The notes below the pieces were generated by a model, which was given only the letters and a program-made list of their open reading frames with translations, did no database searches and had not been told where the DNA came from. The translations under genes and the position numbers were made by a program. A stretch of DNA of 64,000 nt. It comes from Escherichia phage vB_Ec-M-J. The stretch lies in sequence record OQ718158.1, one strand, 5' to 3'. Positions 14,118 to 33,742 of this stretch are shown in pieces (position 1 is the stretch's first letter; each line of letters begins with the position of its first letter).

Positions 14118-14121
14118 CAGC

Positions 14122-14149
14122 GGGACAGCTTGGAAAAAGGTGATATAAT
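14122..14149 (+). promoter_or_regulatory. sigma70-like promoter (GGGACA-N16-TGaTATAAT)
   Basis: Extended -10 TGATATAAT at 14141-14149 with a partial -35 GGGACA; the same architecture occurs at 63587-63628. Confidence 0.5.
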
Positions 14150-14183
14150 TATATTTGTAACAACATACATGGAGAGTATTAAA

Positions 14184-14414
14184 ATGGAACAAGAACCAGA
14201 AAAAATTCAACTAACACTAATCGACCTAATCAACGCTGCTAAAATCATGGAAGCTGCTGTGGCTCGTAATTCATTTAAAGTCGAAGAACTTGTTGATGTT
14301 GCTCCAGTCGTATCTAAGTTTGTTGAGTTTGCTAACTCTGCACTCGAAGATATCAAAGCACAAGAAGAAGCTGATGCTGCACAAGCTGCTGCTGAACAAA
14401 ATAAAGGAGAATAA
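14184..14414 (+). CDS. small hypothetical protein (76 aa, Ala/Glu-rich helical)
   Basis: ATG 14184 has a GGAGAG Shine-Dalgarno and lies downstream of the terminator and promoter; the longer track ORF from 14085 would read through the terminator. Confidence 0.6.
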   Translation: MEQEPEKIQLTLIDLINAAKIMEAAVARNSFKVEELVDVAPVVSKFVEFANSALEDIKAQEEADAAQAAAEQNKGE

Positions 14415-14416
14415 TA

Positions 14417-15070: not shown

Positions 15071-15075
15071 TATAA

Positions 15076-15672
15076 ATGAATAAAATAGAATTAGATGAAG
15101 CAATCAATGGTTTATCTAATGTATGTTTCAGTGGCGGGGCAGCAGGTGCTGACCGCCTTTTTTCTATCTATGCAAAAGACAATGGATTTGAAGTAATAAA
15201 TTTTTCATTCAAGGGTCACCAAAGCAGCGTAGATGAAAATACTATATTAGAAATTCCACCCAATATCCTTTGTGATAGTTCAATATTAAAACAATTAAAC
15301 ATTGCATGTTACTCTTTACGCCGTAAAGTTCCTAAGCCTGGTTCGTATGTATATAACTTACTTGCAAGGAATAGTTACCAGATACTTAATACAAAAAGAG
15401 TATATTGTATTGCAAATATTACATCACCTACGCAAGTTTCAGGTGGAACTGCATGGGCCGTACAGATGTATATGGATTCAGTTGACAATCCAGAAATATA
15501 TTGTTATGATATGAACACTCGCTCTGTATTTTATTATGATACAGTACTGAAAGAGTTTACTGAAACATTCTCAATACCAGCACCACACGGTAACTGGACT
15601 GGGATTGGTTCACGTAATGCTACACAAAAACACATGGAACACTTTATTACATTTTTCAAGGACGTAAAATGA
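15076..15672 (+). CDS. Rossmann-fold protein with a DprA/SLOG-like glycine motif (FSGGAAGAD)
   Basis: 198-aa ORF; N-terminal beta-strand plus SGGAxGxD loop resembling the DprA/YpsA/LOG (SLOG) nucleotide-binding signature. Weak Shine-Dalgarno. Overlaps the thymidylate synthase start by 4 nt. Confidence 0.45.
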   Translation: MNKIELDEAINGLSNVCFSGGAAGADRLFSIYAKDNGFEVINFSFKGHQSSVDENTILEIPPNILCDSSILKQLNIACYSLRRKVPKPGSYVYNLLARNSYQILNTKRVYCIANITSPTQVSGGTAWAVQMYMDSVDNPEIYCYDMNTRSVFYYDTVLKEFTETFSIPAPHGNWTGIGSRNATQKHMEHFITFFKDVK

Positions 15673-16598
15673 AACAACTACAAGAACTATATCAAAGAAT
15701 TCTGGATCAAGGTGTCGAAAGCGTTGATCGTACTGGTGTTGGCACTATCAAGCTAATCGGACAACAAATGCGTTTTGACCTAAAAGAAGGTTTCCCAGCA
15801 GTAACTACTAAACGTTTGGCTTGGAAAGCAATGACTTCAGAATTGTTATGGTTTATTGAAGGTTCTCACGATGAGCGTCGTCTGTGTGAAATTTTACACG
15901 GGACACGTGATGTAGAAAAGAAAACAATTTGGACAGACAACTACCTTAATCAAGGTGTAAGCCTTGGTTATTCTGATGGTGAGCTTGGCCCAGTTTATGG
16001 TAAACAATGGCGTGAATGGGAAGATTATAAATTCAGTTCCAGTACTGAAGAAATTCAAGAACTAAAAGATAAAGGGTATAAAGTTATTGATTATACTGGT
16101 TCACATGGTGTTATTATGCGTCGTGTAACTGACCAGCTAAAACAAGTTATTGAAGGTATCAATACTGATCCATACGGTCGTCGTCACATTCTAAGTGCAT
16201 GGAACGTTGGTGAGCTTGATGCTATGACTTTGCCACCCTGTCATAGCTTTGTGCAGTTTTGTGTTGTACAGGGTAAACTAAGTTGTATTCTTCATCAACG
16301 TAGTGCTGATCTATTCCTTGGTGTGCCATTTAATATTAGTAGTTACTCACTACTAACTCATATGATTGCACAAATTACAGGGTTAGATGTTGGTGAATTT
16401 ATTTGGAATGGTGGCGACTGCCATATCTACCAAAACCATATTGAACAAGTAAAAGAGCAACTCCAACGTGAACCACGTACATTACCAGAATTATGGCTAG
16501 ATCCTACTATTACTGATATTGAAGATTTCACTATGGATTCTTTCAAATTAGTTAATTACGATCCAATGCCAACAATCAAAGCACCAATGGCTGTATAA
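15669..16598 (+). CDS. thyA: thymidylate synthase
   Basis: Hallmark motifs TTKR, GPVYGKQWR, SAWNVGELD, LPPCHSF (catalytic Cys), QRSADLFLGVPFNI and GGDCHIYQNH; ~30-aa insertion relative to E. coli ThyA. Confidence 0.95.
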   Translation: MKQLQELYQRILDQGVESVDRTGVGTIKLIGQQMRFDLKEGFPAVTTKRLAWKAMTSELLWFIEGSHDERRLCEILHGTRDVEKKTIWTDNYLNQGVSLGYSDGELGPVYGKQWREWEDYKFSSSTEEIQELKDKGYKVIDYTGSHGVIMRRVTDQLKQVIEGINTDPYGRRHILSAWNVGELDAMTLPPCHSFVQFCVVQGKLSCILHQRSADLFLGVPFNISSYSLLTHMIAQITGLDVGEFIWNGGDCHIYQNHIEQVKEQLQREPRTLPELWLDPTITDIEDFTMDSFKLVNYDPMPTIKAPMAV

Positions 16599-18685: not shown

Positions 18686-19465
18686 TTAACGAGTACGCTC
18701 AGGAATATCAATACCTTCATATACCCAAATTGCAGCTTGTTGTGCTTTATAAATTGCATCAGGATCTAAATCATCAACTGCATCAATGTCAGCACATTGC
18801 TTATTACACTCTGCAAATAGAGATTCAACCATAGCAAATGCTTCAGTGTATAGTTGAGTCATTTCAGCAGCAGATAGTTTTACAATTGCGTCATCAAGGA
18901 AAATCGAAACGCTATCAGAACCGGAAGTTACTTGTGTATAATAATTAAGAAGCATTTGACGACCAGCTAGATCAGTACTATAACGATGACCGTTAAACAT
19001 ATAACCAGCATTAATACGATCACTACGAGATGATACTGTGCGTGCTTTCAGATCAGATTTAACTGCTGCAATGTCCATATCAACATAATTATAAGTTTTC
19101 AGTACTGTTAACTCTTTATATTCACCTTCTGCTTCTTCTAAGAATGTGATGACTGGTTGATTACTATCTTGTAGTTTAATATATTCCAAATTCTCATTAA
19201 TTGCGTTCACATTACCAACATTCTTATATTCCAACCACCAGAAACCCTCTTCTTTACGAACAGCGTTATTAGGTTCAATTTCAGAACCATCTTTACTTGA
19301 AATACCATAAAGTGCACGAATATCGCTGTACAAATAACGATATGTTTGTTCATCATCAGGAGTTGCCCCAGGGCGTTCTTTTAAACCCTTAACACCAACT
19401 GGGTTGGAGATGATGTTACCCAATTCATAATTTTCTTTAGAACTACCTTTTACATATGTAAACAT
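18686..19465 (-). CDS. hypothetical protein (possible tail-fibre assembly/accessory protein)
   Basis: 259-aa ORF with GAGG Shine-Dalgarno, immediately downstream of the giant fibre gene. Confidence 0.6.
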   Translation of the reverse strand: MFTYVKGSSKENYELGNIISNPVGVKGLKERPGATPDDEQTYRYLYSDIRALYGISSKDGSEIEPNNAVRKEEGFWWLEYKNVGNVNAINENLEYIKLQDSNQPVITFLEEAEGEYKELTVLKTYNYVDMDIAAVKSDLKARTVSSRSDRINAGYMFNGHRYSTDLAGRQMLLNYYTQVTSGSDSVSIFLDDAIVKLSAAEMTQLYTEAFAMVESLFAECNKQCADIDAVDDLDPDAIYKAQQAAIWVYEGIDIPERTR

Positions 19466-19530: not shown

Positions 19531-22500
19531 TTAAGCAGTACGTTGTGCAATGAACAAATCAGTAACTGGACTTACACCATCATAAATTACTTGGTAAATG
19601 GTCACGCTACCAGCAGTTTTGTTTAGTTCACCATCAACAACAGCATAAGTACCATCAGTTGTAAAGTTTCTGTTACCAGTTGCATCTTGTTTAACATAGA
19701 TGTATACTGATGCAGCTTTACCGCCACCAATTAGGCCAGTAATTGGAGCCAACGTGGTATCTTGGTCTAGAGTGATGAAGTATACGTTACTTGTACCATC
19801 TGGAGTCCATGTTCCGGTTGGAGCAATTACTGATGATGTAACTTGAGTTGGGATTACATCATACTTTTTGGTAGTTACTGTTGTAGTAGTTAAGTTAGCA
19901 TTAGTAGTGGTTAGTTCACCAGTCACTGTTACTGCCTTATCAAACACAGCATTTTCTTTAAATGATGAAGTTGCATTAACGGTTAGAACGTCAGCCGCTG
20001 CGTCACCTAATGTTACGTTACCATTCACAGTTAGTGCTCCACCTACTGTTGCGTTACCAGTAATGGATGCACTTGCAAGTGTAGCCAAACCTGATGTTGT
20101 AATTGTAGAAACGGTTGTTGCAGCGAATCCAGCAGTACCAGTTGCAGTGATATTGCCACCCACTGTTATGTTACCCGCAGTGGTCACTGCACCAGTGATA
20201 TTTGCACCACTTGACATAGTTACTAAACCACCAAATGAACCAGTAGTAGTAACTTCTAAAGTATTACCTTTAAGTAATCCAGTTGCAGTGATGGAAGTAC
20301 CAGCAGTAATTGCAGTACCTGCACTTAATGTGGTTCCAGCAGCTACGTTGTTAGCTGCAGTCAAAGACTTAACAGCTACATCGGAATCTGCTTGGTTCAA
20401 TTGTGCATTTAGTACGCCAGTAACAGTGAAGTTACCGTTGTTTACAACGTTACCATTAACGATTAGGTTGTTGTTTTGTGAACCGACTTCACCAATGGTT
20501 GCAGCCTTGGATATAAGTGATGCACCAGATGTAATATCACTTGCTGCCTGTATTGTTTGTTCGGCAACAATTGCATATGGTTCAATTGTTTGACCACTAA
20601 CATCAATATCAGCATTTATACCACCGTCAACACGCAAGGAACCTGCGATGAACGTATTTGGAAAAATCTGTACTGTTTCTGGGTTTTCACCAGTTTGTGT
20701 ACCAATTACAACATTTGCTCCAGTTTTCACTGCACCAGCAGTTGTGATAGAACCGAGTGTAGTAGCACCAGTTACTGATAGTGTTCCACCTATGGTTGCA
20801 TTGTTTGTTACTATTAAGCCAGTACCTGTACCATTAAAGGTAGACGATGGTGCTGAAATTGCACCAGTAACACCAAGAGAACCACCAACAGTTGCATTAC
20901 CATCTGAATGAATGGTTGTTGCGACAGAAATACTATTTGCAACAACATCAGTACTGGAAAGATCCAAACTACCAGGAGTTAATGTACCAGCAACAGTTAC
21001 ATCATCACTGAATGTAGCTGCACCAGTTACACCTAGTGTAGTACTAAAGTTACCGGATGTTGATGTAATACCAGATGTTACAATAGATCCCGCAGTTGCA
21101 GTTCCAGTTACATCAAGTGTTCCACCTATGGTTGCATTATTAGTAACAGATAGAGCAGTTCCTGAACCATTTAGTGTTACAGATGGAGCAGATACTACAC
21201 CAGTTACACCCAAATCGCCACCAACAGTTGTGTTACCGTCGGAATGCATGGTTGTTGCTACAGAAATACTATTTGCAGTAATATCAGATGATGCTAAATT
21301 CAAACCACCAGCAGGTGTAAATGTACCATTTACGGTTACATCCCCAGTAAAGGTTGAATCTCCTGACACATCAACTGTTGTTGTCGAAACACCACCATTT
21401 AAGTTTGTTAAACCAGTGACACTTAGTGTTCCACCAACCGTTGCGTTGTTGTTAACAGTTAAGCCAACACCTGGTCCAGTTAAGGACGCAGAAGGACTTG
21501 TTATTGCCCCACCAAAAGATGCAGTTCCAACAGAACTTATAGTTGTGGAAGATGATAATGATTTAACTTCAACATCAGATGCTGATAAATCAACACCACC
21601 ACTTGCAGTAAGTAATCCATCAACTTGTAAGGTTCCACCAAGTGTTGCTGCACCAGTACTAGATAGTGTATTTGTACTTACTGATGTTGCAGACAAACTA
21701 CCAGTATTAACAGTACCTAGTGTTGTTATGCCAGTTACGTTTAATGTACCATTTAAAACAGACGCCTTTGTAACAGACAAACTATCAATTGTAGCTGGAC
21801 CAGAAACATCGATAGTTTCTGCATCTAAACTACTTAATGTTGATGCACCAATTACATTAAGTGTTGTTGCAGCTTCTACACTGTTTACCACAAGATCAGC
21901 ACCAGCAAGATTCAAACCACCTTCTGGTATAAATTCACCTTTAACAGTTAATTTCTGAACAGTACTGTCACCTGAAATATCCAACGCAGATGCTGCTACG
22001 CCACCATTAAATGTACTTTGACCAGTAACTGCTAAAGTTGTTCCAACTGTTGCACTGTTTAGTGCTGCATTACCACTTATTGATGCGGCAGGTGCGGTTA
22101 TTGTACCTTCATCCAACTGCAACCCACCAGAAACAACTTGAACACCACCAGTTGCTACTGTAACTTTACCAGCGGTATTAACAGTACCAGATGTGGATAC
22201 TGCACCGACAAGAGTTGAAGTACCATTAACTGTCAAATTACCAGAAATTTCAGGACTACCAGTAACAATACCAGTTGTTAGAACCAAATCTCCACCAACA
22301 GTTGTTGAACCAGTACTTGCTAGTGTTGAAGCTGTGATATCAGCGGAACTTAGATCAATAGATCCATCAACACTAATATCCCCACCAACATGCACGTTTC
22401 CTAATGAATCTAACGATTTAACGGTCACATCAGTTGTGCTTAAGTCAATTATACCAGCAGTTAGTGTGCCAGATACAGCCAAATCACCAGTGATTGCAGT

Positions 22501-25497
22501 GCTTTTTGCAATTTCGATAGTATCATCAGCAGTTGTAATACTACCCACAGTTAGTGTACCGTTTATCGTTGCATTATTATCAACAACCAAACCTTCACCA
22601 ATAGCATTTAACGCAATACTAGTAGCAGTTACTTGAGTAGCTGATACACTCTGTAGTGTGCTATTTCCAGTTGCTTCAATGGTTGCTGCTCTAACCGAAC
22701 CAATTGTTGCATCTGTACTAATTAGTTTTGGTAAAGTACTTGAATTTACTGAATCACTTACTGTGATTACACCAGTACTATTAATGGTTTCAGCACTTGT
22801 TAGTGATTTAACAGTTACGTCAGCAGAACTAAGGTCAACTGTTCCTGATACAACTAAATCACCACCAATATTTGCACCTTCAGTTGTGGTAATTGATTTA
22901 GCATTAATATCAGTTGTTGCTAAGTCAATTGAACCAGGAGTTAAAACACCACTAACAGTTAGGTTACCTGTAATTGTTGTATCATTACTAATTTCAACAC
23001 CACCAGCATTAAAAATAACTGGCGTTTCAACAGAAATAGATTTCACATTACCACTTGCGACGACAGATGCTAATGAAGATGCTCCTGTAATATTTAAAGC
23101 AACACTGTTTGTTGTTGTAGCAGTTATAGTTCCAATACTTGCTTCAGTACTTGATAATTTAGGTAGAACACTAGTACCATTTAGATCATTACTAACGACT
23201 GGACCAGTACTTGTTAGTGATTTAACAGTTACATCTGCCGCACTAAGGTCAACTGTTCCTGATACAACTAAATCACCACCAATATTTGCACCCTCGGATG
23301 TGGCAATTGATTTAGCAGAAACGTCAGTTGTGCTTAGGTCAATTGAACCAGGAGTTACCGAACCACTTACTGTCAAGTTTCCATCAATTAAAGTATTATT
23401 TGTAATAGATACACCTGCTGGGTTAGAAATACTATCAGCTTGAACTACAACAGCAGTAACTTTACCAGAAGAATTTAAGTTAACAACACTAGAATTACCA
23501 CTAACTGTCAAATCTGTAATGGTTGCATCACTAACAGTTGCGTTTGTTGCAGTTAAATCAGTACTTGATAATTTAGGTAGAACACTAGTACCAGTTAGAT
23601 CATTACTAACGACTGGACCAGTACTGGTTAATGATTTAACAGTTACGTCTGCTGCACTCAAATCAACCACACCATCAACAGTTAAGTTACCATTAACAGT
23701 TACACCCTCTGTTACAGTTACAGACTTAGCAGCAACGTCAGTTGTGCTTAGGTCAATTGAACTAGGAGTTAGCGTTCCTTGAATAACAACATCATTTTCA
23801 AATGTGGTATTACCGGAAATTGTTGGCGAAGTTAATGTAGTTGTTGAAATTGAATCTGCACTTACGGAATCTGCACTTATTTCACCCGTTGATGTGATTT
23901 TTGGTGAAGTAATTTCAGTTGATGCTGAAATTGTTGGTGCTGAAACTAAAGTTGTTGCAGATACTGAATTTGAGTTAATAGTATTGGTATTTAGTACATT
24001 ACTAAGAACCATCGAACTACCATTAATTTCACCAGTTACACCAAGAGTTCCACCGATTGACGCATTACCAGTGCTTTCTAAGGTCACTGCTTTCACCAAT
24101 GTTGATGCATTAATCGAATTAGGAGTTAGGTCTTGACCACTTACATCAACAGTTAGGCCAGTTACTACACCAGTAAAGTCAACATCGTTTAAAATAGTCT
24201 TACCACCAACTCTTAGTTGTGGTGTGTTTGGGTCTTGTACCGCATTACCAGTAATTGTTAGGTAATCTAGTTTGTTTAGACCATTACCTGTGATACCGTA
24301 AGTAGCCAAAGATGCGTTACCAAAAGTTGCTGTTTTTAGAACATTTAATGTCGCTGGAGAAACAACTTCAGATTGTATTTCGTTTTGTAGTATTACTGTT
24401 GGACGTAAACCAGTACCAGTATATGCAAACGAAATTCTAGCAGCCGGATCTGCTACGTTTTGTCCTAAACTTACTGCTTTAAGTGTCGCAGTACTATTAA
24501 AACCAGTAATGTTACCACCTAAAGATACAGCACCACCTAATGAAGATGTACCAGAAACATTTAATGTTAGTGCGTTCAAATCATCCAATTGGAATGTACC
24601 ACCTAATGTTCCAGCGATATTAATATCATTAAAGTTTGCAGTACCTGAACTTTCGATATTAGGAATGGTTGCAGTTCCAGTTACTTCAAAATCATGAACT
24701 TTAGTTTTTCCAGATTTTACCTCCAACAATGGTGTTGTTGGGTCTTGAACAGCATTACCTGAAACTGTCAAGTAATCTAGTTTGTTTAGACCATTACCAG
24801 TGATACCATATGTTGAAAGTGATGCGTTACCAAATGATGCAGTAGAAAGAACTGTCAATTTTGCTGGTGACATCAACTCTGATTGAATTTCGTTTTGTAA
24901 TAGTACAGTTGGTCTTTGACCAGGAACAGTATAGCCAAAGTTAAGTCTATACGCTTGACCTGCCGCATCCGGTCCAATACGAACATCACGGAAGTTTGCA
25001 GTACTGTTTATACCAGTAATGTTTGCACCCAACGTAACTGCACCTTGTAGACCAGTAGTCCCAGACACATTAAGTGTTGTAGCATTAATATCAGAAAGAT
25101 TAAAAGTACCACCAAGTGTACCAGAAATGTTTACATCTTTAAAAGTTGCTGTGCCAGTTGAAGTAATATCAGTTGATTCAACAGAATCAAATGATCCTGA
25201 ATTAGCTTCTAAGTTATCAAATTTTGCAGTTGTTCCGACAGCAGCAGTAATGTTTCCTGCAAATGTCGCAGCACCTGAAACATCAGCACCAGCGGATAAG
25301 GTTGCCTTACCAGCAACATCCAATGTACCTGTGACATTCACAGTACCAGCGGTAATTGCAGTGAATACTGCGTTAGCAAAAGACACTTCCCCATTAACCG
25401 TTAGGTCATTACTGAATACTGCATTACCTTTGACCAAAAGATCCTTACCTACCGTGGAATTACCAGATACGTCAAGATCCGTTTTAATCGAGTACAT
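19531..25497 (-). CDS. giant repetitive tail fibre protein (1988 aa)
   Basis: ATG with AGGAGGGG Shine-Dalgarno; T/G/S/V/N-rich with multiple internal tandem repeat modules; paralogous to ORFs 27418-30567 and 25647-27395. Confidence 0.8.
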   Translation of the reverse strand: MYSIKTDLDVSGNSTVGKDLLVKGNAVFSNDLTVNGEVSFANAVFTAITAGTVNVTGTLDVAGKATLSAGADVSGAATFAGNITAAVGTTAKFDNLEANSGSFDSVESTDITSTGTATFKDVNISGTLGGTFNLSDINATTLNVSGTTGLQGAVTLGANITGINSTANFRDVRIGPDAAGQAYRLNFGYTVPGQRPTVLLQNEIQSELMSPAKLTVLSTASFGNASLSTYGITGNGLNKLDYLTVSGNAVQDPTTPLLEVKSGKTKVHDFEVTGTATIPNIESSGTANFNDINIAGTLGGTFQLDDLNALTLNVSGTSSLGGAVSLGGNITGFNSTATLKAVSLGQNVADPAARISFAYTGTGLRPTVILQNEIQSEVVSPATLNVLKTATFGNASLATYGITGNGLNKLDYLTITGNAVQDPNTPQLRVGGKTILNDVDFTGVVTGLTVDVSGQDLTPNSINASTLVKAVTLESTGNASIGGTLGVTGEINGSSMVLSNVLNTNTINSNSVSATTLVSAPTISASTEITSPKITSTGEISADSVSADSISTTTLTSPTISGNTTFENDVVIQGTLTPSSIDLSTTDVAAKSVTVTEGVTVNGNLTVDGVVDLSAADVTVKSLTSTGPVVSNDLTGTSVLPKLSSTDLTATNATVSDATITDLTVSGNSSVVNLNSSGKVTAVVVQADSISNPAGVSITNNTLIDGNLTVSGSVTPGSIDLSTTDVSAKSIATSEGANIGGDLVVSGTVDLSAADVTVKSLTSTGPVVSNDLNGTSVLPKLSSTEASIGTITATTTNSVALNITGASSLASVVASGNVKSISVETPVIFNAGGVEISNDTTITGNLTVSGVLTPGSIDLATTDINAKSITTTEGANIGGDLVVSGTVDLSSADVTVKSLTSAETINSTGVITVSDSVNSSTLPKLISTDATIGSVRAATIEATGNSTLQSVSATQVTATSIALNAIGEGLVVDNNATINGTLTVGSITTADDTIEIAKSTAITGDLAVSGTLTAGIIDLSTTDVTVKSLDSLGNVHVGGDISVDGSIDLSSADITASTLASTGSTTVGGDLVLTTGIVTGSPEISGNLTVNGTSTLVGAVSTSGTVNTAGKVTVATGGVQVVSGGLQLDEGTITAPAASISGNAALNSATVGTTLAVTGQSTFNGGVAASALDISGDSTVQKLTVKGEFIPEGGLNLAGADLVVNSVEAATTLNVIGASTLSSLDAETIDVSGPATIDSLSVTKASVLNGTLNVTGITTLGTVNTGSLSATSVSTNTLSSTGAATLGGTLQVDGLLTASGGVDLSASDVEVKSLSSSTTISSVGTASFGGAITSPSASLTGPGVGLTVNNNATVGGTLSVTGLTNLNGGVSTTTVDVSGDSTFTGDVTVNGTFTPAGGLNLASSDITANSISVATTMHSDGNTTVGGDLGVTGVVSAPSVTLNGSGTALSVTNNATIGGTLDVTGTATAGSIVTSGITSTSGNFSTTLGVTGAATFSDDVTVAGTLTPGSLDLSSTDVVANSISVATTIHSDGNATVGGSLGVTGAISAPSSTFNGTGTGLIVTNNATIGGTLSVTGATTLGSITTAGAVKTGANVVIGTQTGENPETVQIFPNTFIAGSLRVDGGINADIDVSGQTIEPYAIVAEQTIQAASDITSGASLISKAATIGEVGSQNNNLIVNGNVVNNGNFTVTGVLNAQLNQADSDVAVKSLTAANNVAAGTTLSAGTAITAGTSITATGLLKGNTLEVTTTGSFGGLVTMSSGANITGAVTTAGNITVGGNITATGTAGFAATTVSTITTSGLATLASASITGNATVGGALTVNGNVTLGDAAADVLTVNATSSFKENAVFDKAVTVTGELTTTNANLTTTTVTTKKYDVIPTQVTSSVIAPTGTWTPDGTSNVYFITLDQDTTLAPITGLIGGGKAASVYIYVKQDATGNRNFTTDGTYAVVDGELNKTAGSVTIYQVIYDGVSPVTDLFIAQRTA
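22380..23790 (-). repeat. in-frame tandem repeats (~420-nt unit, about three copies) inside the giant fibre gene
   Basis: Near-identical nucleotide blocks around 22800-22940, 23220-23360 and 23630-23770, encoding ...TPSSIDLSTTDV...VDLSAADVTVKSLTS... modules. Confidence 0.7.
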
Positions 25498-25544
25498 AGA
25501 GTCCCCTCCTATAACGATGAACTATATATTCATAACCCATCTTT

Positions 25545-25568
25545 TGTTAATATACTTATATTTAGTTT
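25545..25568 (-). promoter_or_regulatory. late-promoter-like motif AACTAAATATAAGTATATTAACAA (minus strand)
   Basis: 48 nt upstream of ATG 25497; nearly identical 24-mer upstream of ATG 30567. Confidence 0.45.
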
Positions 25569-25597
25569 AATTCACAAAAACACTATTATCTAATACA

Positions 25598-25628
25598 AAA
25601 GAAAAAGCCAACTAAAAAAGTTGGCTTT
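25598..25628 (-). terminator. rho-independent terminator (minus strand) after ORF 25647-27395
   Basis: aaagccaac-taaaaaa-gttggcttt hairpin followed on the minus strand by a T-rich run. Confidence 0.65.
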
Positions 25629-25646
25629 AATTATTAATTTAAAATG

Positions 25647-27395
25647 TTATACACGTTGTGCAACGAAGGTATCAAACACAGTACTGAAACCATCATAGAT
25701 TACTTGGATAATACTTGTTTGACCAACTACAGCACTTACTGTACCAGAAACTACAGAGTATGCACCACCGAAGGTGAAAGTAGTATCAGCAACAGTTGGA
25801 GTTACATAGATATACACTGAACATGCTTGACCACTACCAATTAGACCCGCGATGGAATCCATTGTAACACTTTGGTCAAGAGTTAAGCGATATACGTTAG
25901 TAGTACCATCTGGTGTCCAAGTACCACCTACAGCAGCAGTAGAAGCAGTAACACTAGCAGGGATAACAGAATATTTCTTAGTTACCATGTTGTTTGTAGT
26001 GAAGTTTGCAGTGGTGGTGTTAATAGAACCAGTCACTGTTAGGTTCTTATCAAATGTTGCGTTCTCTTTAAATGTAGATGTTGCATTTACAGTTAAAGTA
26101 TCAGCAGCAGCATCACCAATCACAGTGTTACCATTTGCAGTTAATGTACCACCTACAGTTAGAGCACCAGTTACAGATGCACTTGCAAGGGTAGCTAAAC
26201 CTGATGTTGTAATGGTAGAAACGGTTGTTGCACCGAATCCAGCAGTACCAGTTGCAGAGATATTACCACCTACTGTTAGGTCACCAGCAGTGATACCAAC
26301 AGTACCAGTGATGTTTGCACCACTTGACATAGTTACTGCACCACCAAATGAACCAGTAGTGGTGACTTCTAACGAATTACCTTTTAGTAAGCCTGATGCA
26401 GTGATGGATGTTCCAGCAGTGATTGAAGTACCAGCCGCAACGTTATTAGTTGCAGTTAAAGATTTAACAGCTACATCGGAATCTGCTTGGTTCAATTGTG
26501 CATTTAGTACACCAGTAACGGTGAAGTCACCATTAGTTACTACGTTACCATTAACAGTTAGGTTGTTGTTTTGTGAACCAACATCACCAATTGTTGCAGC
26601 TTTAGAAACGATGGTTGCACCAGAAGTAATGTTACCAACAGCAGATAGTGTTGCAGCAGCTTCAATTGCATATGGTTCTAGTGTTTGACCACTTACGTCG
26701 ATTTCAGCGTTAATACCACCGATTACACGCAATTTACCAGCAATATAAGTATCTGGAATGATCTGTACAGTTTCAGGTTGTTCACCAACTGGAGTACCAA
26801 CAGTTAGGGTTGTACCAGTTTTCACTGCACCAGTAGCTGTTAGTGAAGATACAGTAGTTGCACCAGTAACACCTAGAGTTCCAGTTACACCCAAATTACC
26901 ACCAACTGATGCGTTTGCAGTAGAAGTTAAACTTCCAACAGTTGCTAGACCAGATGCAGTCACAGTAGAAGTACTAACACCACCACTTAGAGTACTTAGG
27001 CCAGTTGCATTGATAGTTGTCGCAGTAGTTAGACTATTAGCAGTAATGTCTGCACCGCTTAGGTCAAGACCACCTTGTGGGATCAATTCACCTTGGACAG
27101 TTAGTTTCTGAACAGTACTGTCACCAGAAACTGTTAGTGATGTCGCAGATACACCTGCTAGAGTAGAAGCACCAGTTACACCTAAAGTTCCAGTAATGGA
27201 AGTTCCTGCTAGAGTAGAAGCACCAGAAACGTTAATTGTGTTAGTATTGATACCACCATCAACTACCTGAATACCACCAGTACTCACTGTTACTTTCTTA
27301 CCGATATTAACAATATCAGTTAGGTTAACAGCACCAGTTACACCAAGAGTTCCACCGATTGTTGTATTACCAGAGATAGCTGGGCTACCAGTCAC
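25647..27395 (-). CDS. C-terminal part of the second tail-fibre paralog (frameshift-split)
   Basis: Track start is GTG without a Shine-Dalgarno. The frame is open upstream to a TAG at 27435-27437 and encodes QVVGTDLVLTTGVVTGSPAISG, collinear with the middle of the 1988-aa fibre. The whole 582 aa aligns with the C-terminal ~580 aa of that fibre. Confidence 0.7.
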   Translation of the reverse strand: MTGSPAISGNTTIGGTLGVTGAVNLTDIVNIGKKVTVSTGGIQVVDGGINTNTINVSGASTLAGTSITGTLGVTGASTLAGVSATSLTVSGDSTVQKLTVQGELIPQGGLDLSGADITANSLTTATTINATGLSTLSGGVSTSTVTASGLATVGSLTSTANASVGGNLGVTGTLGVTGATTVSSLTATGAVKTGTTLTVGTPVGEQPETVQIIPDTYIAGKLRVIGGINAEIDVSGQTLEPYAIEAAATLSAVGNITSGATIVSKAATIGDVGSQNNNLTVNGNVVTNGDFTVTGVLNAQLNQADSDVAVKSLTATNNVAAGTSITAGTSITASGLLKGNSLEVTTTGSFGGAVTMSSGANITGTVGITAGDLTVGGNISATGTAGFGATTVSTITTSGLATLASASVTGALTVGGTLTANGNTVIGDAAADTLTVNATSTFKENATFDKNLTVTGSINTTTANFTTNNMVTKKYSVIPASVTASTAAVGGTWTPDGTTNVYRLTLDQSVTMDSIAGLIGSGQACSVYIYVTPTVADTTFTFGGAYSVVSGTVSAVVGQTSIIQVIYDGFSTVFDTFVAQRV

Positions 27396-27417
27396 AACAC
27401 CAGTTGTTAGTACTAGA

Positions 27418-30400
27418 TCAGTACCAACAACTTGCTAGACTTGCAGCTACAAGGTTAGTTGCACTTAAGTCGAATGCACCATCTACAGTTAGGTTACCAG
27501 CAATGTGTGCGTTACCTAGTGAATCAAGAGATTTAACGGTTACATCAGTATTGCTTAGGTCGATTGAACCAGCAGTTAGTGTGCCAGATACAGCTAAATC
27601 ACCAGTGATTGCAGTATTTTTTGCAATATTAAGAGAAGCAGCAGTTGTTGTTAAAGAACCAACAGTTGCAATGCCACCAACAGATAATGCACCACCAACG
27701 TTTGCATCATTATCAACTTGAAGACCAAGGCCACCACCAGAAAATTCAGCACTATTAGCAGTTACTTGAGTAGCTGATACACTTTGTAGTACACTGTTGC
27801 CAGTTGCATTAATAGTACCTGCATTTACTGTAAAGAGTGTTGCATCAGTTGAAGTAATTTTAGGTAACGAACTAGTATTGGTTGAATCGGTAACGGTAAT
27901 AACACCAGCACTTGTAATTGTCTCTGCACTTGCAAGAGATTTCACAGACACATCAGCAGCACTTAGGTCAAAAGTACCATCAACTACTAAGTTTCCACCA
28001 ACATTAACATCAGCAGTAGTAGTTAGTGAGTTTGCAGTAATATCAACAGTTGTTAGATCAAGACCACCTTCAGGTTTGAATACACCAGTGACAGTTAGAT
28101 CTTTTGCCGCGACAACATTACTTGCTAGATTTAGTGTACCAGCACCAGCAGCTTCAGCTTGTAAAGTTGGAACTGTTACAGAAGTTGTGATTGTTGCAGT
28201 ACCAGAAGACAAACGCGAACCAGATACTACACCAGTACTAGTTAGTGTTCCTACTTTCGCTGCACCAGTAGTAGTTAGTGTGCCACCTGAAACGTCACCA
28301 GTTGCGGCAACAGAAGATGCATTAATTACACCAAATGTACTTGGGTTAGTTGCACTAACTGATTTTGTTACTACATCAGCAGCAGACAAATCAATAGCAC
28401 CAGTTACTGCAAGAGAACCACCAACAGTTACGTTACCAGTAGTTGTTAAAGAAGCAGCACTTACATCAGTAGTGCTTAAATCTATACTACTCGGAGTTAG
28501 TGTTCCAGTAATAGTTACGTTATTAGCAAAAGTAGTGTCACCAGTAATACTTGGAACAGTTAGTGAAGCCATAGAGCCAGCACCAGTTACTGCAAGAGAA
28601 CCACCAGATAGTGCACCAGCCGCAGTTACTGTATTACCAGATACAGACGCACCAGTAACATCACCAGTACTGGTTACTGAACTAGCAGTTAGGCCAGCTA
28701 AAGTAGTGTCCCCAGCAACAGATAGTGTTGTTGTAACATCAACTTTATTTGGGGCGATATCAAGACCATCAACATCAGCTTGGGCAGTTACACCAGTAGT
28801 TGTACCAGTTACTACTAAATCACGTACAGTTACAGTTTGACCAGTAACGCTAACATCACCACTGAAAGTACCTTTAGCAGCACTTACATCACCAGTGAAG
28901 GTAGCAGCAGTACCAGTTAGTGCACCAACAACATTAGCAGTTCCACCAACTTGTAGGTTAGTTCCTACTGTGGTTTGACCAACTGATTCAAGGGTTTGAC
29001 CTTTGATTGCTTCAGCAGCATCTACTGATTTAGGAGTTAGATCTTGTCCACTCACATCAACAGTTAGACCAGTTACAGTACCAGTGAATTCAACATCATT
29101 TAGTACTGATTTACCAGCAACTTGTAGTTGTGGGGTAGCTGGACTTTGTGTACCATTACCAGTAATAGATAGATAATCTAGTTTGTTTAGACCGTTACCT
29201 GTGATACCATAGGTTGCAAGAGATGCATCACCAAAGGTTGCAGTTTTTTGTACATTAAGTACTGCTGGAGATACTAGCTCAGACTGAATTTCATTTTGTA
29301 GAATTACAGTTGGACGTGCACCAGGGGCAGAATAAGCAAAACCATACTTAACGTTAGCATCGGCGGCGTTTTGTCCTAAACTTACTGCTTTAAAATTAGC
29401 AGTACTATTAGCACCGGAAATATCAGCACCTAAAGTTACACCACCAACAAGGCTAGTTAAACCGGATACAGTTAGTGTGTTTGCTTCAATATCATCAAGA
29501 CTGAAAGTACCACCGAGTGTACCAGATACGTTGATGTTATTAAAATTAGCAGTACCAGTACTTTCAATGTTAGGAATAGTTGCAGTTCCTGTTACTTCGA
29601 AATCATGAACTTTAGTTTTACCTGAAGTTACTTGTAATAGTGGAGTTGTTGGATCTTGAACAGAGTTACCAGATACTGTTAGGTAATCTAGTTTGTTTAG
29701 ACCATTACCAGTAATACCAAAAGTGGATAGTGACGAATCACCAAAAGATGCAGTTTTCAATACACTTAGGGTAGCTGGAGACATCAATTCTGATTGGATT
29801 TCGTTCTGTAGAATTACAGTTGGACGAAGACTTGGAGCAGAATAGTTAAAGCTCAAACGGTAGTTAGTGTTTGCAGCATTGGAACCAATTTTAATATCAC
29901 GGAAGTTTGCACTACTATTCACACCAGTAATGTTGGAACCTAATGTAACACCACCTTGTAGACTGGTTAAACCAGAAACAGTTAGAGTTGTTGCATTAAC
30001 ATCAGATAGACTAAATGTTCCACCTAGTGTACCGGAAATATTCACATCTTTAAAGTTTGCAGTTCCAGTTGATGTGATATCAGTAGTTGCAGTGTTTGTG
30101 AATGTTGCATCAGTTGCAGTTATTTTGTCAAATGCTGCGGTAGTGCCAGTTTCAGCAGTAATATTACCTTTAAATGAAGAAGTTCCAAGAACATCCATTG
30201 ATGCCACTTGGGTATCTTTTAGTACAGCAGTGCCAGCGGTTTGTGTTAGGTTACCTGCCATTGATACTGGGCTTTGGAATTGTGCATTAGAATTAATCGT
30301 TGCAGTATCAGAACCAACAGGCAAATTACCAATTACGGAATTACCATGAACTTCAATTCCACCATTCAATGATGCTTTACCAGCAACATCTAGTGTAGAT

Positions 30401-30567
30401 GAAATGTCTACAGTTTCTGCTTCAATTGCAGTGAATACAGCGTCAGCAAAAGTTACAGTTCCATTAACTGTTAGATTTTTATTGAATACTGCATCACCTT
30501 TCACAAGAAGATCTTTAGCAACCGTTGCACCACCAGTTATATCGAGATCTGTTTTAATCGAGTACAT
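27418..30567 (-). CDS. N-terminal part of the second tail-fibre paralog (1049 aa)
   Basis: ATG with GGAGGG Shine-Dalgarno; N-terminus MYSIKTDLD... matches the 1988-aa fibre. Ends ...SLASCWY* exactly where the homolog continues ...LASTGSTTVGG... Confidence 0.8.
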   Translation of the reverse strand: MYSIKTDLDITGGATVAKDLLVKGDAVFNKNLTVNGTVTFADAVFTAIEAETVDISSTLDVAGKASLNGGIEVHGNSVIGNLPVGSDTATINSNAQFQSPVSMAGNLTQTAGTAVLKDTQVASMDVLGTSSFKGNITAETGTTAAFDKITATDATFTNTATTDITSTGTANFKDVNISGTLGGTFSLSDVNATTLTVSGLTSLQGGVTLGSNITGVNSSANFRDIKIGSNAANTNYRLSFNYSAPSLRPTVILQNEIQSELMSPATLSVLKTASFGDSSLSTFGITGNGLNKLDYLTVSGNSVQDPTTPLLQVTSGKTKVHDFEVTGTATIPNIESTGTANFNNINVSGTLGGTFSLDDIEANTLTVSGLTSLVGGVTLGADISGANSTANFKAVSLGQNAADANVKYGFAYSAPGARPTVILQNEIQSELVSPAVLNVQKTATFGDASLATYGITGNGLNKLDYLSITGNGTQSPATPQLQVAGKSVLNDVEFTGTVTGLTVDVSGQDLTPKSVDAAEAIKGQTLESVGQTTVGTNLQVGGTANVVGALTGTAATFTGDVSAAKGTFSGDVSVTGQTVTVRDLVVTGTTTGVTAQADVDGLDIAPNKVDVTTTLSVAGDTTLAGLTASSVTSTGDVTGASVSGNTVTAAGALSGGSLAVTGAGSMASLTVPSITGDTTFANNVTITGTLTPSSIDLSTTDVSAASLTTTGNVTVGGSLAVTGAIDLSAADVVTKSVSATNPSTFGVINASSVAATGDVSGGTLTTTGAAKVGTLTSTGVVSGSRLSSGTATITTSVTVPTLQAEAAGAGTLNLASNVVAAKDLTVTGVFKPEGGLDLTTVDITANSLTTTADVNVGGNLVVDGTFDLSAADVSVKSLASAETITSAGVITVTDSTNTSSLPKITSTDATLFTVNAGTINATGNSVLQSVSATQVTANSAEFSGGGLGLQVDNDANVGGALSVGGIATVGSLTTTAASLNIAKNTAITGDLAVSGTLTAGSIDLSNTDVTVKSLDSLGNAHIAGNLTVDGAFDLSATNLVAASLASCWY

Positions 30568-30611
30568 TTAGTTCCCTCCAAATAGGCAAAAAGCATAAAA
30601 TACATTTGACC

Positions 30612-30635
30612 TTGTTAATATACATATATTTAGTT
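30612..30635 (-). promoter_or_regulatory. late-promoter-like motif AACTAAATATATGTATATTAACAA (minus strand)
   Basis: 45 nt upstream of ATG 30567. Confidence 0.45.
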
Positions 30636-31599: not shown

Positions 31600-32655
31600 T
31601 TAAGATAGGGTGATATATGTTATTGGTTGAGCAGCTTTCAATAATGCCCCTGCTGCGGTAGCAGTAACAATCGGATCGGCAATATCGATACGATACGCAT
31701 TATTAACAACATAAACTGCTCTAGTGATATATGTTTTTAAATCTTCGCCATTTTCCCCTGCTCCTGTGATTAGGATTTCGGTTCCAGCAGCTTTAGCATA
31801 TTGATTATCACCCCATGATACACCCAATGCTTCGATATAAGTTTGTCCTGCAACTGTTTGTCTAATTGTGTCATATCGACCAAAGAAAGAACCACCTACT
31901 GTAACAATAAATTTTCCACCTGATTGTTTATGGATAATTGTTCCTGCTGGGAAATATCTCCCACCAGGAAAAACATCATAAGGCACGTAATACTGTTCAA
32001 CTACAGGTATTACTACAGGTCCACGATGACCCGTTCCATCAATTGCAGTGGTTACTTTAAAGTTATTAGATGATTGGTCAATACGGTCAACATACATTCT
32101 TGAGAAACTATATTTTGATATGTTACAATCATCTTGAACAACACAATTAGTCCAGTTGGTATATGTATATTTAGAGCGAGTATATAAGCCCCCTCCTTCA
32201 CCTTCAGTTGCAAGGTGTTGTCCAATAACATCAAGTTCTTTAGTACTGATATTATTAAACTTGGAAGATGACGGCAATCCACGCCATTGAATTCTACTAC
32301 ATGTAATATTAGAAAGTTCAGTAGTATTTAGCCAATTATCAGAGCCTGAAGTATACACAATAATAGACGACTCAGGAATGTGGAGATTACATAATTTAAA
32401 GTTTCGTGGAGGACCAGCAAATTTACCAGATGTTACGCCCCAGTTAATAGAAACCATACGGTTAGTTACTGATGGATCATTTAATAGATGCCCAGATAGG
32501 CCATCAATAATAAAATCAACAGAACCATAAGTAATTACACCAGCGGTTGTCAAACCAGTACCAATTGATACCAACGTTGATGGATAAACTTCATTATTGA
32601 GAATTTTAAAGTCTTTACCCAACTCAACGTGAATACATTGACGGACATTGTACAA
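31600..32655 (-). CDS. probable C-terminal continuation of the tailspike/depolymerase (frameshift-split at an A8 run)
   Basis: Track start is TTG without a Shine-Dalgarno; frame open upstream into the A8 run (plus-strand T8 at 32677-32684); beta-rich composition. Confidence 0.6.
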   Translation of the reverse strand: MYNVRQCIHVELGKDFKILNNEVYPSTLVSIGTGLTTAGVITYGSVDFIIDGLSGHLLNDPSVTNRMVSINWGVTSGKFAGPPRNFKLCNLHIPESSIIVYTSGSDNWLNTTELSNITCSRIQWRGLPSSSKFNNISTKELDVIGQHLATEGEGGGLYTRSKYTYTNWTNCVVQDDCNISKYSFSRMYVDRIDQSSNNFKVTTAIDGTGHRGPVVIPVVEQYYVPYDVFPGGRYFPAGTIIHKQSGGKFIVTVGGSFFGRYDTIRQTVAGQTYIEALGVSWGDNQYAKAAGTEILITGAGENGEDLKTYITRAVYVVNNAYRIDIADPIVTATAAGALLKAAQPITYITLS

Positions 32656-32659
32656 GCGG

Positions 32660-33742
32660 TTATTTTTTATAACGAATTTTTTTTACATATTGTGAATCAT
32701 CAGCATTCACATCATAAGGACCAGAACCTGCAACACCGATACCAATACCCCAGTTTGAAAGAGGAATTGGTGCATTTGTACCATCTACGTTTTCAATCAA
32801 GTTACCTTCTATTACAAATCCGTCTGGGTAATGTGAGTTGACTACGTTCAATTCAATTGCATCACCATATATATCATGGATGTGGTTGTATGAATAACGC
32901 CCAACGGTCATTTTCTCACCAGTGCCTTGCTGAAGAACACCGTACTTACATTGTGTCATTTCATTAAAGCAGAAGTCGATAGTACCTGATTCAGTCATAC
33001 CTTGCATTAGAAATGCAGCAGTACTTGTAATATTAATAAATTTATTAAAATAAAATTTACCATTACCACCAAAGAATTTTAAATAACATCCTGTTAATGT
33101 TGCTTGTTGGATTGTACTATTCAGTACCGATACCATTGTGCCACCGTTACCAGTGATTGTACCACCAAACCATTGAATATCATTCAAATAAACAGCAGTT
33201 CTGATACGATAATTACCACCAGCTTGAATTTGGATTTTGTGTTCTTTAGCATAAACTGCACATGCGTTAACCGCCGCCGTGTCATCAGTGATGCCATCAC
33301 CTTTTGCACCAAACTCTTCTGGAGTTATGTAAAACTGTGCCTGTTGAAGTGTTCCTCCAGTAATAAGTCCGATATAATCAGCACCGTTAACACTGGAAAG
33401 GACATTTTTATTAATGTATAATGATTTTACCCAAACATCATTTGTTTTTGCAAAGATATCAACAATACCCTCAGAATCAACTTGAAAATAAGTGTTGTTA
33501 TTTTTACCAATGTCATTTGTTGGTGGAAGTACGCCAAATAAAGCATTTGGGTTATCTTCAAGATACCTAACGTTTACTGCGGAATCATCGTCATTAGGAG
33601 TTCCCACCTTAACAGGTAGGAACGTTTCGCCTAAAAAGTCTTTGATTGCGACAGAATCGTTTACAAAATTAATAGAAGCACCACGTTTACCCAACTTGAA
33701 TGTTGGCATCATGGTCCCTTCTAAATTGGAAAAAACTGCCAT
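32660..33742 (-). CDS. tailspike N-terminal part: shared anchor plus pectate-lyase-superfamily depolymerase motif
   Basis: ATG with AGAGGG Shine-Dalgarno; N-terminus MAVFSNLEGTMMPTF... shared with ORF 30686-31585; EEFGAKGDGITDDTAAVNA is the signature start of right-handed beta-helix pectate-lyase-type depolymerases; ends in the A-run ...YVKKIRYKK*. Confidence 0.75.
   Translation of the reverse strand: MAVFSNLEGTMMPTFKLGKRGASINFVNDSVAIKDFLGETFLPVKVGTPNDDDSAVNVRYLEDNPNALFGVLPPTNDIGKNNNTYFQVDSEGIVDIFAKTNDVWVKSLYINKNVLSSVNGADYIGLITGGTLQQAQFYITPEEFGAKGDGITDDTAAVNACAVYAKEHKIQIQAGGNYRIRTAVYLNDIQWFGGTITGNGGTMVSVLNSTIQQATLTGCYLKFFGGNGKFYFNKFINITSTAAFLMQGMTESGTIDFCFNEMTQCKYGVLQQGTGEKMTVGRYSYNHIHDIYGDAIELNVVNSHYPDGFVIEGNLIENVDGTNAPIPLSNWGIGIGVAGSGPYDVNADDSQYVKKIRYKK

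What the first reader, a model, noticed from the sequence alone, without database searches (positions are those of the whole stretch)
19531..30567. Duplicated giant fibre genes with long dispersed and tandem in-frame repeats
The two fibre paralogs share long high-identity nucleotide blocks, for example 20389-20470 versus 26475-26590 and the 5' ends around 24240-24300 versus 29155-29230. Each also carries internal tandem duplications: a ~500-nt unit duplicated near 24140-25140 and again in 29050-30050, and a ~420-nt unit in about three copies across 22380-23790. Such repeats are substrates for homologous recombination, domain shuffling and length variation, a plausible host-range diversification mechanism. 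They are also an assembly hazard.
Basis: seen in the sequence. Interest (0 to 1): 0.5.

Follow-up and report, generated by a model that had tools for sequence, protein, structure and literature searches.

The report
Duplicated, repeat-built jumbo-phage fibre genes
Two neighbouring giant virion-fibre genes of an E. coli jumbo phage are old copies of each other, built from repeated modules that related phages have visibly gained, lost and swapped by recombination; this is an ordinary way for phage fibres to evolve, and here one copy is broken by a 14-base deletion.

Summary
The window comes from an Asteriusvirus (121Q/PBECO4-like) E. coli jumbo phage, 99% identical to fEgEco12 outside this locus.

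- **Genes.** Gene A (19531-25497, minus strand, 1988 aa) and gene B (25647-30567) are collinear paralogs, 64% identical in protein.
- **Repeats.** They share nucleotide blocks of 68-76% identity, 80-89% locally. Both carry a 510-nt in-frame unit twice. A also has a 414-nt unit three times and a 336-nt unit twice. The longest exact repeat is 51 nt, against 15 at most in shuffles.
B is split in this genome by a 14-nt deletion at 27429|27430; six relatives have it intact.
- **Mosaic A.** A 4.56-kb shaft cassette (20497-25060) has sharp borders and is only 30-80% identical to any relative.
- **Recombination in relatives.** JP4 differs from UB by exactly one 170-aa unit. UB differs from 121Q by exactly one 112-aa unit. 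Both extra units are chimeras, as unequal crossing-over predicts. TH47 carries a B::A fusion gene.

So the recombination and length-variation reading is supported by comparison with relatives. An effect on host range is untested. The assembly hazard looks small, though a mis-join remains one possible origin of the TH47 fusion. This is a new member of a known kind and of modest interest.

The parts
19531..25497 (-). Fibre gene A, intact, 1988 aa
   Evidence: ORF. PHROG 4549 tail fiber, E 3e-195. 70.6% aa identity to 121Q gp571. Syntenic with fEgEco12 g316.
27418..30567 (-). Fibre gene B, 5' fragment (1049 aa), ending at a premature TGA at 27420-27418
   Evidence: Relatives have a single 4917-4935-nt CDS here.
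25647..27434 (-). Fibre gene B, 3' fragment. The frame is open from 27434. The first start codon is GTG at 27395, with no Shine-Dalgarno sequence visible upstream.
   Evidence: Putting back the 14 nt gives a 1644-aa protein 99.9% identical to Ecwhy_1 gp207.
27429..27430 (-). Junction of a 14-nt deletion. Coding-strand ACTGGTTCTACTAC is missing, which shifts gene B out of frame.
   Evidence: Alignment with fEgEco12, Ecwhy_1 and BF17. Sequence read directly.
24166..25185 (-). Two tandem 510-nt (170-aa) units in A: aa 105-274 and 275-444
   Evidence: 66% aa and about 63% nt identity between the units.
29077..30096 (-). Two tandem 510-nt (170-aa) units in B: aa 158-327 and 328-497
22534..23775 (-). 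Three tandem 414-nt (138-aa) units in A: aa 575-712, 713-850 and 851-988. They contain the longest exact repeat (51 nt, 22828-22878 = 23242-23292).
20671..21342 (-). Two tandem 336-nt (112-aa) units in A: aa 1386-1497 and 1498-1609
19540..20788 (-). C-terminal block of A that is paralogous to 25653-26883 in B (74%). It includes a 47-nt exact match (20369-20415 = 26464-26510) and an 18-nt mini-tandem (20285-20323 / 26398-26435).
   Evidence: The switch point of the TH47 B::A fusion maps here.
20497..25060 (-). Allelic 'shaft cassette' of gene A, aa about 147-1667. It is 30-80% nt identical to every relative, while the flanks are at least 98% identical.
   Evidence: Sliding identity and mismatch map. 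No closer allele was found in the phage collection, IMG/VR, metagenome contigs or the protein database.
19534..19821 (-). Conserved C-terminal domain of about 95 aa, predicted to be all-beta
   Evidence: AlphaFold2 pLDDT about 90. Conserved in 20 homologues. Homologous to the C-terminus of the phiTE tail fibre, PDB 9CUY chain g (E 1e-23).
25544..25567 (-). 24-nt motif AACTAAATATAAGTATATTAACAA, 46 nt upstream of the start of A; a possible promoter
   Evidence: It occurs only twice in the window and never in 100 shuffles.
30612..30635 (-). The same 24-nt motif, 44 nt upstream of the start of B
25604..25628 (-). Terminator-like hairpin followed by a T-run, between B and A

Best explanation
The region holds two tandem paralogous genes for giant virion fibres, most likely tail fibres, of an Asteriusvirus jumbo coliphage.

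Layout of each protein: a conserved N-terminal part of about 100-150 aa, inferred to attach it to the virion; a long beta-rich shaft built from reiterated in-frame modules of 170, 138 and 112 aa; and a conserved C-terminal beta domain of about 95 aa. Each gene has its own copy of a 24-nt upstream motif and a ribosome-binding site. A terminator-like hairpin follows B and another lies upstream of B's motif.

The modules are old. Two 170-aa units are present even in distant homologues. The blocks that stay most conserved between modules, and between the two paralogs, serve as crossover sites for homologous recombination. Related phages show three outcomes:
1. Unequal crossing-over between tandem units adds or removes exactly one unit.
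2. Recombination between A and B fuses them into one gene.
3. Double crossovers in the conserved ends replace the whole shaft. The window's gene A is an example.

In this particular phage, B is inactivated or truncated by a 14-nt deletion, so only A is expected to give a full-length fibre.

Shown here: the repeats, the paralogy, the disruption of B, the mosaic borders, and the unit indels and fusion in relatives. Inferred: a trimeric fibre structure, attachment at the baseplate, and any effect on fibre length, adsorption or host range.
For: - Repeats and paralogy.
- Fibre identity: PHROG 4549; orthologue phAPEC6 gp256, 180 kDa, found in virions by MS (PMC7247149; locus confirmed); C-terminal homology to the phiTE tail fibre 9CUY_g; the gene sits among baseplate and tail genes.
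- Clade-specific tandem pair versus a single gene.
- Unit-exact indels: JP4 vs UB (98.6% aa) differ by 170 aa; UB vs 121Q (96.2%) differ by 112 aa.
- Chimeric middle units: in JP4 the 5' two-thirds of the middle unit is 84-100% identical to UB unit 2 (98-100% over its first 200 nt) and the 3' third is 88-94% identical to unit 1. The middle 112-aa unit of UB behaves the same way.
- TH47 fusion: B-type up to about window-B 26400, then 100% fEgEco12-type A plus A's downstream flank.
- Mosaic gene A: no mismatches to Ecwhy_1 in 25061-25233, then dense mismatches from 25060 to 20497, then sparse again. The other six A alleles are 97-99.7% identical to one another but only 72% to the window's.
- The B deletion is unique to this genome.
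- The rest of the window is 99.1-99.3% identical to fEgEco12, with a single intergenic 1-nt indel, so sequence quality is good.
Against: - Within this window the tandem units are only 58-67% identical and the longest exact match is 51 nt. Ongoing recombination here is not demonstrated and may be rare.
- Two 170-aa units are conserved across most of the family, so copy number is mostly stable.
- TH47 is an 'UNVERIFIED' record. Its fusion could be a mis-assembly at the shared block.
- The function as a tail fibre, rather than one of the sheath or capsid 'hair' fibres described for phAPEC6 and 121Q, rests on annotation, synteny and MS in a relative.
- The monomer model of the 170-aa unit was poor (pLDDT 68), so the shaft fold is not established.
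- The swapped part is the shaft while the C-terminal domain is conserved. That is not the usual pattern for host-range switching.
Confidence: 0.78

Rival explanations
1. The repeats are only fossil domain repeats of a fibrous protein. They reflect how a long shaft was built in the distant past and play no present role in recombination or variation.
For: Tandem units in the window are 58-67% identical. Two 170-aa units are present in nearly all of 22 family members, including distant ones. B is 97.5-99.9% conserved among seven isolates.
Against: Relatives that are 96-99% identical differ by indels of exactly one unit, with chimeric junction units. Three-unit versions occur in several homologues: JP4, P0002, P0008 and P0009. 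There is also the TH47 fusion and the sharp mosaic in the window's gene A.
Confidence: 0.12
2. The apparent duplication and repeats are assembly artefacts: a collapsed or expanded repeat, or a chimeric contig.
For: Repeated fibre genes are known trouble spots for assemblers. TH47 and CMSTMSU are flagged UNVERIFIED, and CMSTMSU is full of frameshifts.
Against: A and B are only 64% identical in protein, far too diverged to arise from mis-assembly. Six independently sequenced phages from Finland, Poland, China, Thailand and elsewhere show the same intact two-gene layout, and CMSTMSU shows it in fragmented form. The flanks are 99% collinear with fEgEco12 and have essentially no indels.
Confidence: 0.02
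3. Gene B is functional in this phage. The 14-nt gap is a consensus or assembly error, or is bypassed by frameshifting or by separate translation of two fragments that assemble together.
For: Outside the gap the B sequence is 99.9% identical in protein to Ecwhy_1, so there is no decay. The second frame stays open through to the normal stop.
Against: A 14-nt loss is not a typical base-calling error, and the other 45 kb of the window show no coding indels. No slippery site is evident, and no Shine-Dalgarno sequence is visible before the GTG at 27395. A second frameshift in the nearby depolymerase-like gene (T8 vs T7, 32677-32684) suggests real loss-of-function mutations in host-recognition genes.
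Confidence: 0.15
4. A and B are not baseplate tail fibres. They encode the 'hairy' whisker fibres seen on the sheath or capsid of 121Q-like phages.
For: phAPEC6 and 121Q carry long flexible fibres at three rings on the sheath and on the capsid, and the genes for them are unassigned (PMC7247149, PMC5646251). Conservation of the C-terminal domain argues against a hypervariable receptor tip.
Against: The genes sit in a tail and baseplate gene block. There is C-terminal homology to a baseplate-attached fibre protein of phiTE. The phAPEC6 authors list gp256 among the putative tail fibres.
Confidence: 0.2

Closest known systems
Single-copy giant fibre gene of Asteriusvirus phages (121Q gp571, phAPEC6 gp256, PBECO4, UB, JP4)
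   Same: Same locus, between the 259-aa DUF4376 protein and the 299-aa structural protein. Same module order (170-aa x2, 138-aa x3, 112-aa x2-3, conserved C-terminal domain). 64-71% aa identity.
   Different: One gene there, two tandem paralogs here. The window's A lacks 53 aa near residue 78.
Tandem pair g316/g317 of fEgEco12 (also Ecwhy_1, BF17, EC.P1, WPEC3, WPEC5)
   Same: Identical two-gene architecture and flanks. B is 97.6-99.9% identical. The first ~146 and last ~320 aa of A are at least 98% identical in nucleotides.
   Different: The window's A carries a different 4.56-kb shaft (72% aa overall, 1988 vs 1899-1906 aa). The window's B has a 14-nt frameshifting deletion.
Mosaic tail-fibre loci of T-even and P2/Mu-type phages, where recombination at conserved motifs swaps fibre segments (Sandmeier 1994; Tetart et al. 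1998; cited from my own knowledge, not checked here)
   Same: Sharp-edged segment exchange between otherwise near-identical genomes, with crossovers in short conserved blocks, and internal repeated motifs in fibre shafts.
   Different: Here the exchanged part is the shaft and the C-terminal domain stays conserved. No sequence homology to T4 gp34 or gp37 was detected.
Putative tail fibre protein of Pectobacterium phage phiTE (PDB 9CUY/9MJN chain g, 793 aa)
   Same: Homologous C-terminal ~170 aa (E 1e-23), including the terminal beta domain and a similar G/T/V-rich shaft.
   Different: Less than half the length. The paper reports modelling only N-terminal residues of the phiTE fibres, so the shared C-terminal domain apparently has no experimental structure.
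T4 gp34 'long tail fiber proximal subunit' (the product name used in GenBank for these genes)
   Same: A very long fibre protein with reiterated shaft domains, encoded next to smaller fibre-associated genes.
   Different: No detectable sequence similarity. No gp34 chain was hit in the PDB at E<=1, and there were no Pfam or NCBIfam matches. The name is an analogy, not a tested membership.

Membership tests
Asteriusvirus/RaK2-like giant fibre family (PHROG 4549; 121Q gp571 / phAPEC6 gp256) | Full-length sequence homology | tested here: met
   PHROG 4549 at E 3e-195 (A), 5e-130 and 3e-54 (the two B fragments). 64-71% aa identity to 121Q gp571.
Asteriusvirus/RaK2-like giant fibre family (PHROG 4549; 121Q gp571 / phAPEC6 gp256) | Conserved genomic position between the 259-aa DUF4376 protein and the 299-aa structural protein, near thyA and baseplate genes | tested here: met
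Asteriusvirus/RaK2-like giant fibre family (PHROG 4549; 121Q gp571 / phAPEC6 gp256) | The product is a virion component | not testable with these tools
   Shown by MS only for the phAPEC6 orthologue gp256 (PMC7247149).
Asteriusvirus/RaK2-like giant fibre family (PHROG 4549; 121Q gp571 / phAPEC6 gp256) | Conserved C-terminal ~95-aa domain (WTPDG...DVFIAQR) | tested here: met
   Present in A and in the 3' fragment of B. There are 18 invariant columns over 16 sequences. Modelled as a beta domain with pLDDT about 90.
T4 gp34-type long tail fibre proximal subunit | Sequence or profile similarity to gp34 | tested here: not met
   No gp34 chain among PDB hits at E<=1. No Pfam or NCBIfam hit.
YadA-like trimeric adhesin (the PBECO4 annotation 'YadA domain protein') | Pfam YadA head, stalk or anchor domains | tested here: not met
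   No Pfam family at E<=10 for A.
Recombination-driven mosaic or repeat-variable phage fibre genes | Sharp mosaic boundaries between otherwise near-identical genomes | tested here: met
   Borders lie in 25061-25233 and 20417-20496. The flanks are 99% identical.
Recombination-driven mosaic or repeat-variable phage fibre genes | Copy-number change of whole repeat units, with chimeric junction units | tested here: met
   Seen in the relatives JP4, UB and 121Q, not within this window.
Recombination-driven mosaic or repeat-variable phage fibre genes | The variation changes adsorption or host range | not testable with these tools
   No phenotype data. The papers on fEgEco12, JP4 and BF17 do not analyse these genes.

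The most novel reading that the evidence does not exclude
Compared with near-identical relatives, this phage has remodelled three host-recognition genes at once. It has a novel shaft in fibre A with both ends conserved, a frameshift in fibre B, and a frameshift in the adjacent 'colanic acid-degrading' protein gene. If these changes are linked, they could record a host shift. Specificity or reach would then be set by the repeat-built shaft, by lateral binding or by fibre length, rather than by the conserved C-terminal tip.
Probability: 0.15. Interest if true: 0.5.

Novelty: new member of a known kind. Interest (0 to 1): 0.3.

Why it matters
Asteriusvirus jumbo phages are being proposed for therapy and biocontrol of pathogenic E. 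coli, yet their host-recognition apparatus is barely characterised. This analysis gives a concrete map of one locus:
- It exists in three states: a single gene, a tandem pair, or a B::A fusion.
- Fibre length changes by whole 170-aa or 112-aa modules.
- The shaft can be exchanged as a cassette.
- Individual isolates can carry inactivated copies.

This helps when annotating and comparing isolates, when designing chimeric fibres (the crossover points are natural module boundaries), and when interpreting host-range differences. It does not reveal a new biological principle.

Tried and rejected
- Tandem Repeats Finder found only short 7-18-nt arrays. The large units are too diverged for it.
- Self-BLASTP of whole proteins returned no off-diagonal hits. 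I replaced it with unit-versus-protein BLASTP and an HMM.
- Pfam and NCBIfam gave no family for A or B. PF26209 is precomputed on the homologues, but my Pfam scans of two of them (P0001, P0005) did not return it, so I could not name it.
- Search for the donor of the window's A shaft: nothing above about 71% nt in the phage collection; nothing in IMG/VR or metagenome contigs; best protein 53% identical; no exact-protein records for A or the B fragment.
- Structure: the C-terminal domain model is confident but has only weak PDB matches (best Pa223 capsid spike, E 7e-3, TM 0.42). The 170-aa unit modelled as a monomer was poor, so no fold search was run on it.
- I checked whether the window's A shaft came from B by gene conversion and rejected this. 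A vs B identity is no higher than in relatives (64% vs 69% aa).
- I rejected slipped-strand deletion between direct repeats as the cause of the 14-nt loss. There is only 1 nt of microhomology.
- No further paralog of A exists elsewhere in the window.
Full report
**Source of the window.** The window is part of an E. coli jumbo myophage of the genus Asteriusvirus (the 121Q / PBECO4 / phAPEC6 group). The fibre region matches 36 phage records, nearly all Escherichia jumbo phages. Outside the fibre locus the window is 99.35% (1-16371, no gaps) and 99.09% (35601-64000, one intergenic 1-nt gap) identical to phage fEgEco12. The exact proteins are not on record in the public gene-position index.

**The observation.** All genes in 16.6-34.9 kb lie on the minus strand.
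- Gene A is 19531-25497 (1988 aa).
- The second 'fibre gene' is two ORFs in this window: 27418-30567 (1049 aa) and 25647-27395 (582 aa from a GTG; the frame is open from 27434).
- Collinear A/B blocks from gapped self-BLASTN: 19540-20788 ~ 25653-26883 (74% over 1262 nt), 22124-22962 ~ 27253-28098 (68%), 24116-25173 ~ 29027-30084 (76%), and 25303-25567 ~ 30373-30635 (74%, which includes about 70 nt upstream of each ATG).
- In-frame tandem units: 510 nt x2 in both genes, 414 nt x3 in A only, and 336 nt x2 in A.
- Random in-frame 300-nt pairs within the region average 29% identity and reach 47% at most. The longest exact repeats are 51 and 47 nt, against 15 nt at most in shuffles.

**What the genes are.**
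- Both hit PHROG 4549 'tail fiber' and nothing in Pfam or NCBIfam.
- The single orthologue in phAPEC6, gp256 (1841 aa, same locus), was detected in virions by mass spectrometry as a 180-kDa putative tail fibre protein (PMC7247149).
- The last ~170 aa are homologous (E 1e-23) to the C-terminus of a fibre protein in the phiTE baseplate structure, PDB 9CUY chain g. In that structure the paper reports modelling only N-terminal, baseplate-proximal residues of the fibres.
- The terminal ~95 aa are strongly conserved in all 20 database homologues and model confidently as a beta domain with no convincing solved relative.
- The GenBank names 'long tail fiber proximal subunit' and 'YadA domain protein' are not backed by any detectable similarity.
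- phAPEC6 and 121Q also carry unassigned 'hairy' fibres on the sheath and capsid. Placement at the baseplate is therefore inferred, not shown.

**Duplication.**
- 121Q, slurp01, phAPEC6 (1841 aa), ph0011 (1834), UB (1959) and JP4 (2129) have one gene at this locus.
- fEgEco12, Ecwhy_1, BF17, EC.P1, WPEC5 and WPEC3 have the tandem pair: A of 1899-1906 aa and B of 1638-1644 aa. CMSTMSU has it in fragmented form.
- Each copy has the same 24-nt upstream motif, AACTAAATATA[A/T]GTATATTAACAA. It occurs only at these two places in the window and never in shuffles. Each also has a GGAGG ribosome-binding site, and a terminator-like hairpin follows B.
- A and B are 64-69% identical in protein, about as far from each other as from the single-copy genes. 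The duplication, or the stacking of two alleles, is therefore old.

**The repeats as modules.**
- The 170-aa unit occurs twice in every orthologue and in distant homologues.
- 138-aa and 112-aa units also recur across the family.

**Copy number changes between close relatives.**
- JP4 and UB are 98.6% identical and differ by one gap of exactly 170 aa. UB and 121Q (96.2%) differ by one gap of exactly 112 aa.
- In JP4 the 5' two-thirds of the middle 170-aa unit is 84-100% identical to UB's unit 2 (98-100% over its first 200 nt), and the 3' third is 88-94% identical to unit 1. The middle 112-aa unit of UB is likewise 5' like the following unit and 3' like the preceding one. This is the expected product of unequal crossing-over between tandem units.
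- Three-unit versions also occur in the more distant homologues P0002, P0008 and P0009.

**Recombination between the paralogs.**
- TH47 has a single 1652-aa gene.
- It is B-type over its 5' part (95% nt to Ecwhy_1 B overall, 100% in most windows just before the switch). From about window-A 20290 / window-B 26400 it becomes 100% fEgEco12-type A, and it continues into A's downstream flank.
- The switch lies about 80 nt beyond the 47-nt A/B exact match, at an 18-nt mini-tandem present in both genes.
- This is a B::A fusion that removed about 6.1 kb.
- The record is 'UNVERIFIED', so a mis-join cannot be excluded. A small 3-site B-type patch inside the A-type part fits real recombination slightly better.

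**Peculiarities of this genome.**
1. *Gene B is broken.* The 14 nt ACTGGTTCTACTAC, present in fEgEco12, Ecwhy_1 and BF17, are missing between 27429 and 27430. This creates a TGA at 27420-27418. EC.P1, WPEC5 and WPEC3 also have an intact B. Restoring the 14 nt gives a protein 99.9% identical to Ecwhy_1 gp207, so the lesion is recent. No Shine-Dalgarno sequence is visible before the downstream GTG.
2. *Gene A is a mosaic.* Against Ecwhy_1 there are 6 mismatches in 25497-25234 and none in 25233-25061. Mismatches are dense from 25060 to 20497, and only 14 remain from 20416 to the stop codon. The other six A alleles are 97-99.7% identical to each other but only 72% to the window's. No closer allele was found anywhere I could search. 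The 3' border abuts the most conserved A/B block.
3. *A second frameshift nearby.* The adjacent 'colanic acid-degrading protein' gene, one 2142-nt CDS in relatives, is split by a T8-for-T7 insertion at 32677-32684.

No other gene in the window is disrupted (and ORF lengths). Two frameshifts both falling in host-recognition genes, which make up about 11% of the window, looks like biology rather than noise. This remains an inference.

**Assessment.** Three caveats apply:
- The units in this window are too diverged to be efficient substrates now.
- Host-range consequences are untested.
- The assembly hazard is minor in general, although a mis-join is one possible explanation of the TH47 fusion.

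Duplicated, repeat-rich, mosaic fibre genes are a classic theme in phage biology. The papers I read on BF17, fEgEco12, JP4 and phAPEC6 mention these genes only in passing. The specifics are therefore new, but the kind is known.

Noticed in passing
window 31600-33742 (minus strand); T-run at 32677-32684: The 'colanic acid-degrading protein' gene is a single 2142-nt CDS in fEgEco12, Ecwhy_1, BF17, EC.P1, WPEC3/5, 121Q and UB. Here it is split into 360-aa and 351-aa ORFs by a 1-nt homopolymer insertion (T8 vs T7).
   Followed up: partly
window 25544-25567 and 30612-30635 (minus strand): An identical 24-nt AT-rich motif, AACTAAATATA[A/T]GTATATTAACAA, lies about 45 nt upstream of both fibre start codons and nowhere else in the 64 kb (up to 3 mismatches allowed). 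It may be a phage promoter duplicated together with the gene.
   Followed up: partly
L013 (TH47, MT446416) 7479-12437: A single 1652-aa fibre gene that is a B::A hybrid. It implies deletion of about 6.1 kb by recombination between the paralogs, or a mis-assembly in an UNVERIFIED record.
   Followed up: yes
L007 (JP4, PQ330092) 10442-11047: In JP4 the 'colanic acid degradation' CDS is annotated at only 606 nt, against 2142 nt in the relatives. It may be truncated or deleted there too.
   Followed up: no
L004 (UB) 5735-7102; L008 (ph0011) 109-2400: UB has an extra 1368-nt gene between the 654-aa and 259-aa structural genes downstream of the fibre. In ph0011 the homologue of the 654-aa gene is longer (2292 nt). 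The whole fibre neighbourhood is therefore variable.
   Followed up: no
L006 (CMSTMSU, MH494197): The two fibre genes are chopped into about ten ORFs annotated 'flagellar hook-length control protein FliK'. The record is UNVERIFIED_ORG, and the cause appears to be many frameshifts and a misleading automatic name.
   Followed up: no
window 18686-19465 (minus strand): The 259-aa protein encoded just downstream of gene A carries Pfam DUF4376 (E 7e-9) and weakly matches tail-fibre PHROGs. It is a candidate distal partner or assembly factor for the conserved C-terminal domain of A.
   Followed up: no
window 42999-53000 (minus strand): A 3333-aa ORF next to the baseplate wedge genes. It is the homologue of fEgEco12 g328 and, judged only from its size and its place next to the baseplate wedge gene, probably corresponds to phAPEC6 gp245 (382 kDa, found in virions by MS).
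   Followed up: no
homologues P0001-P0020: Nearly all homologues carry a precomputed Pfam hit to PF26209. My Pfam scans of two of them (P0001, P0005) did not return it, so I could not name this family or test it on A and B.
   Followed up: no
window ~37247: This is the only other indel against fEgEco12 in 45 kb of flanking sequence: a 1-nt difference in an intergenic T-run (T6 vs T7).
   Followed up: yes
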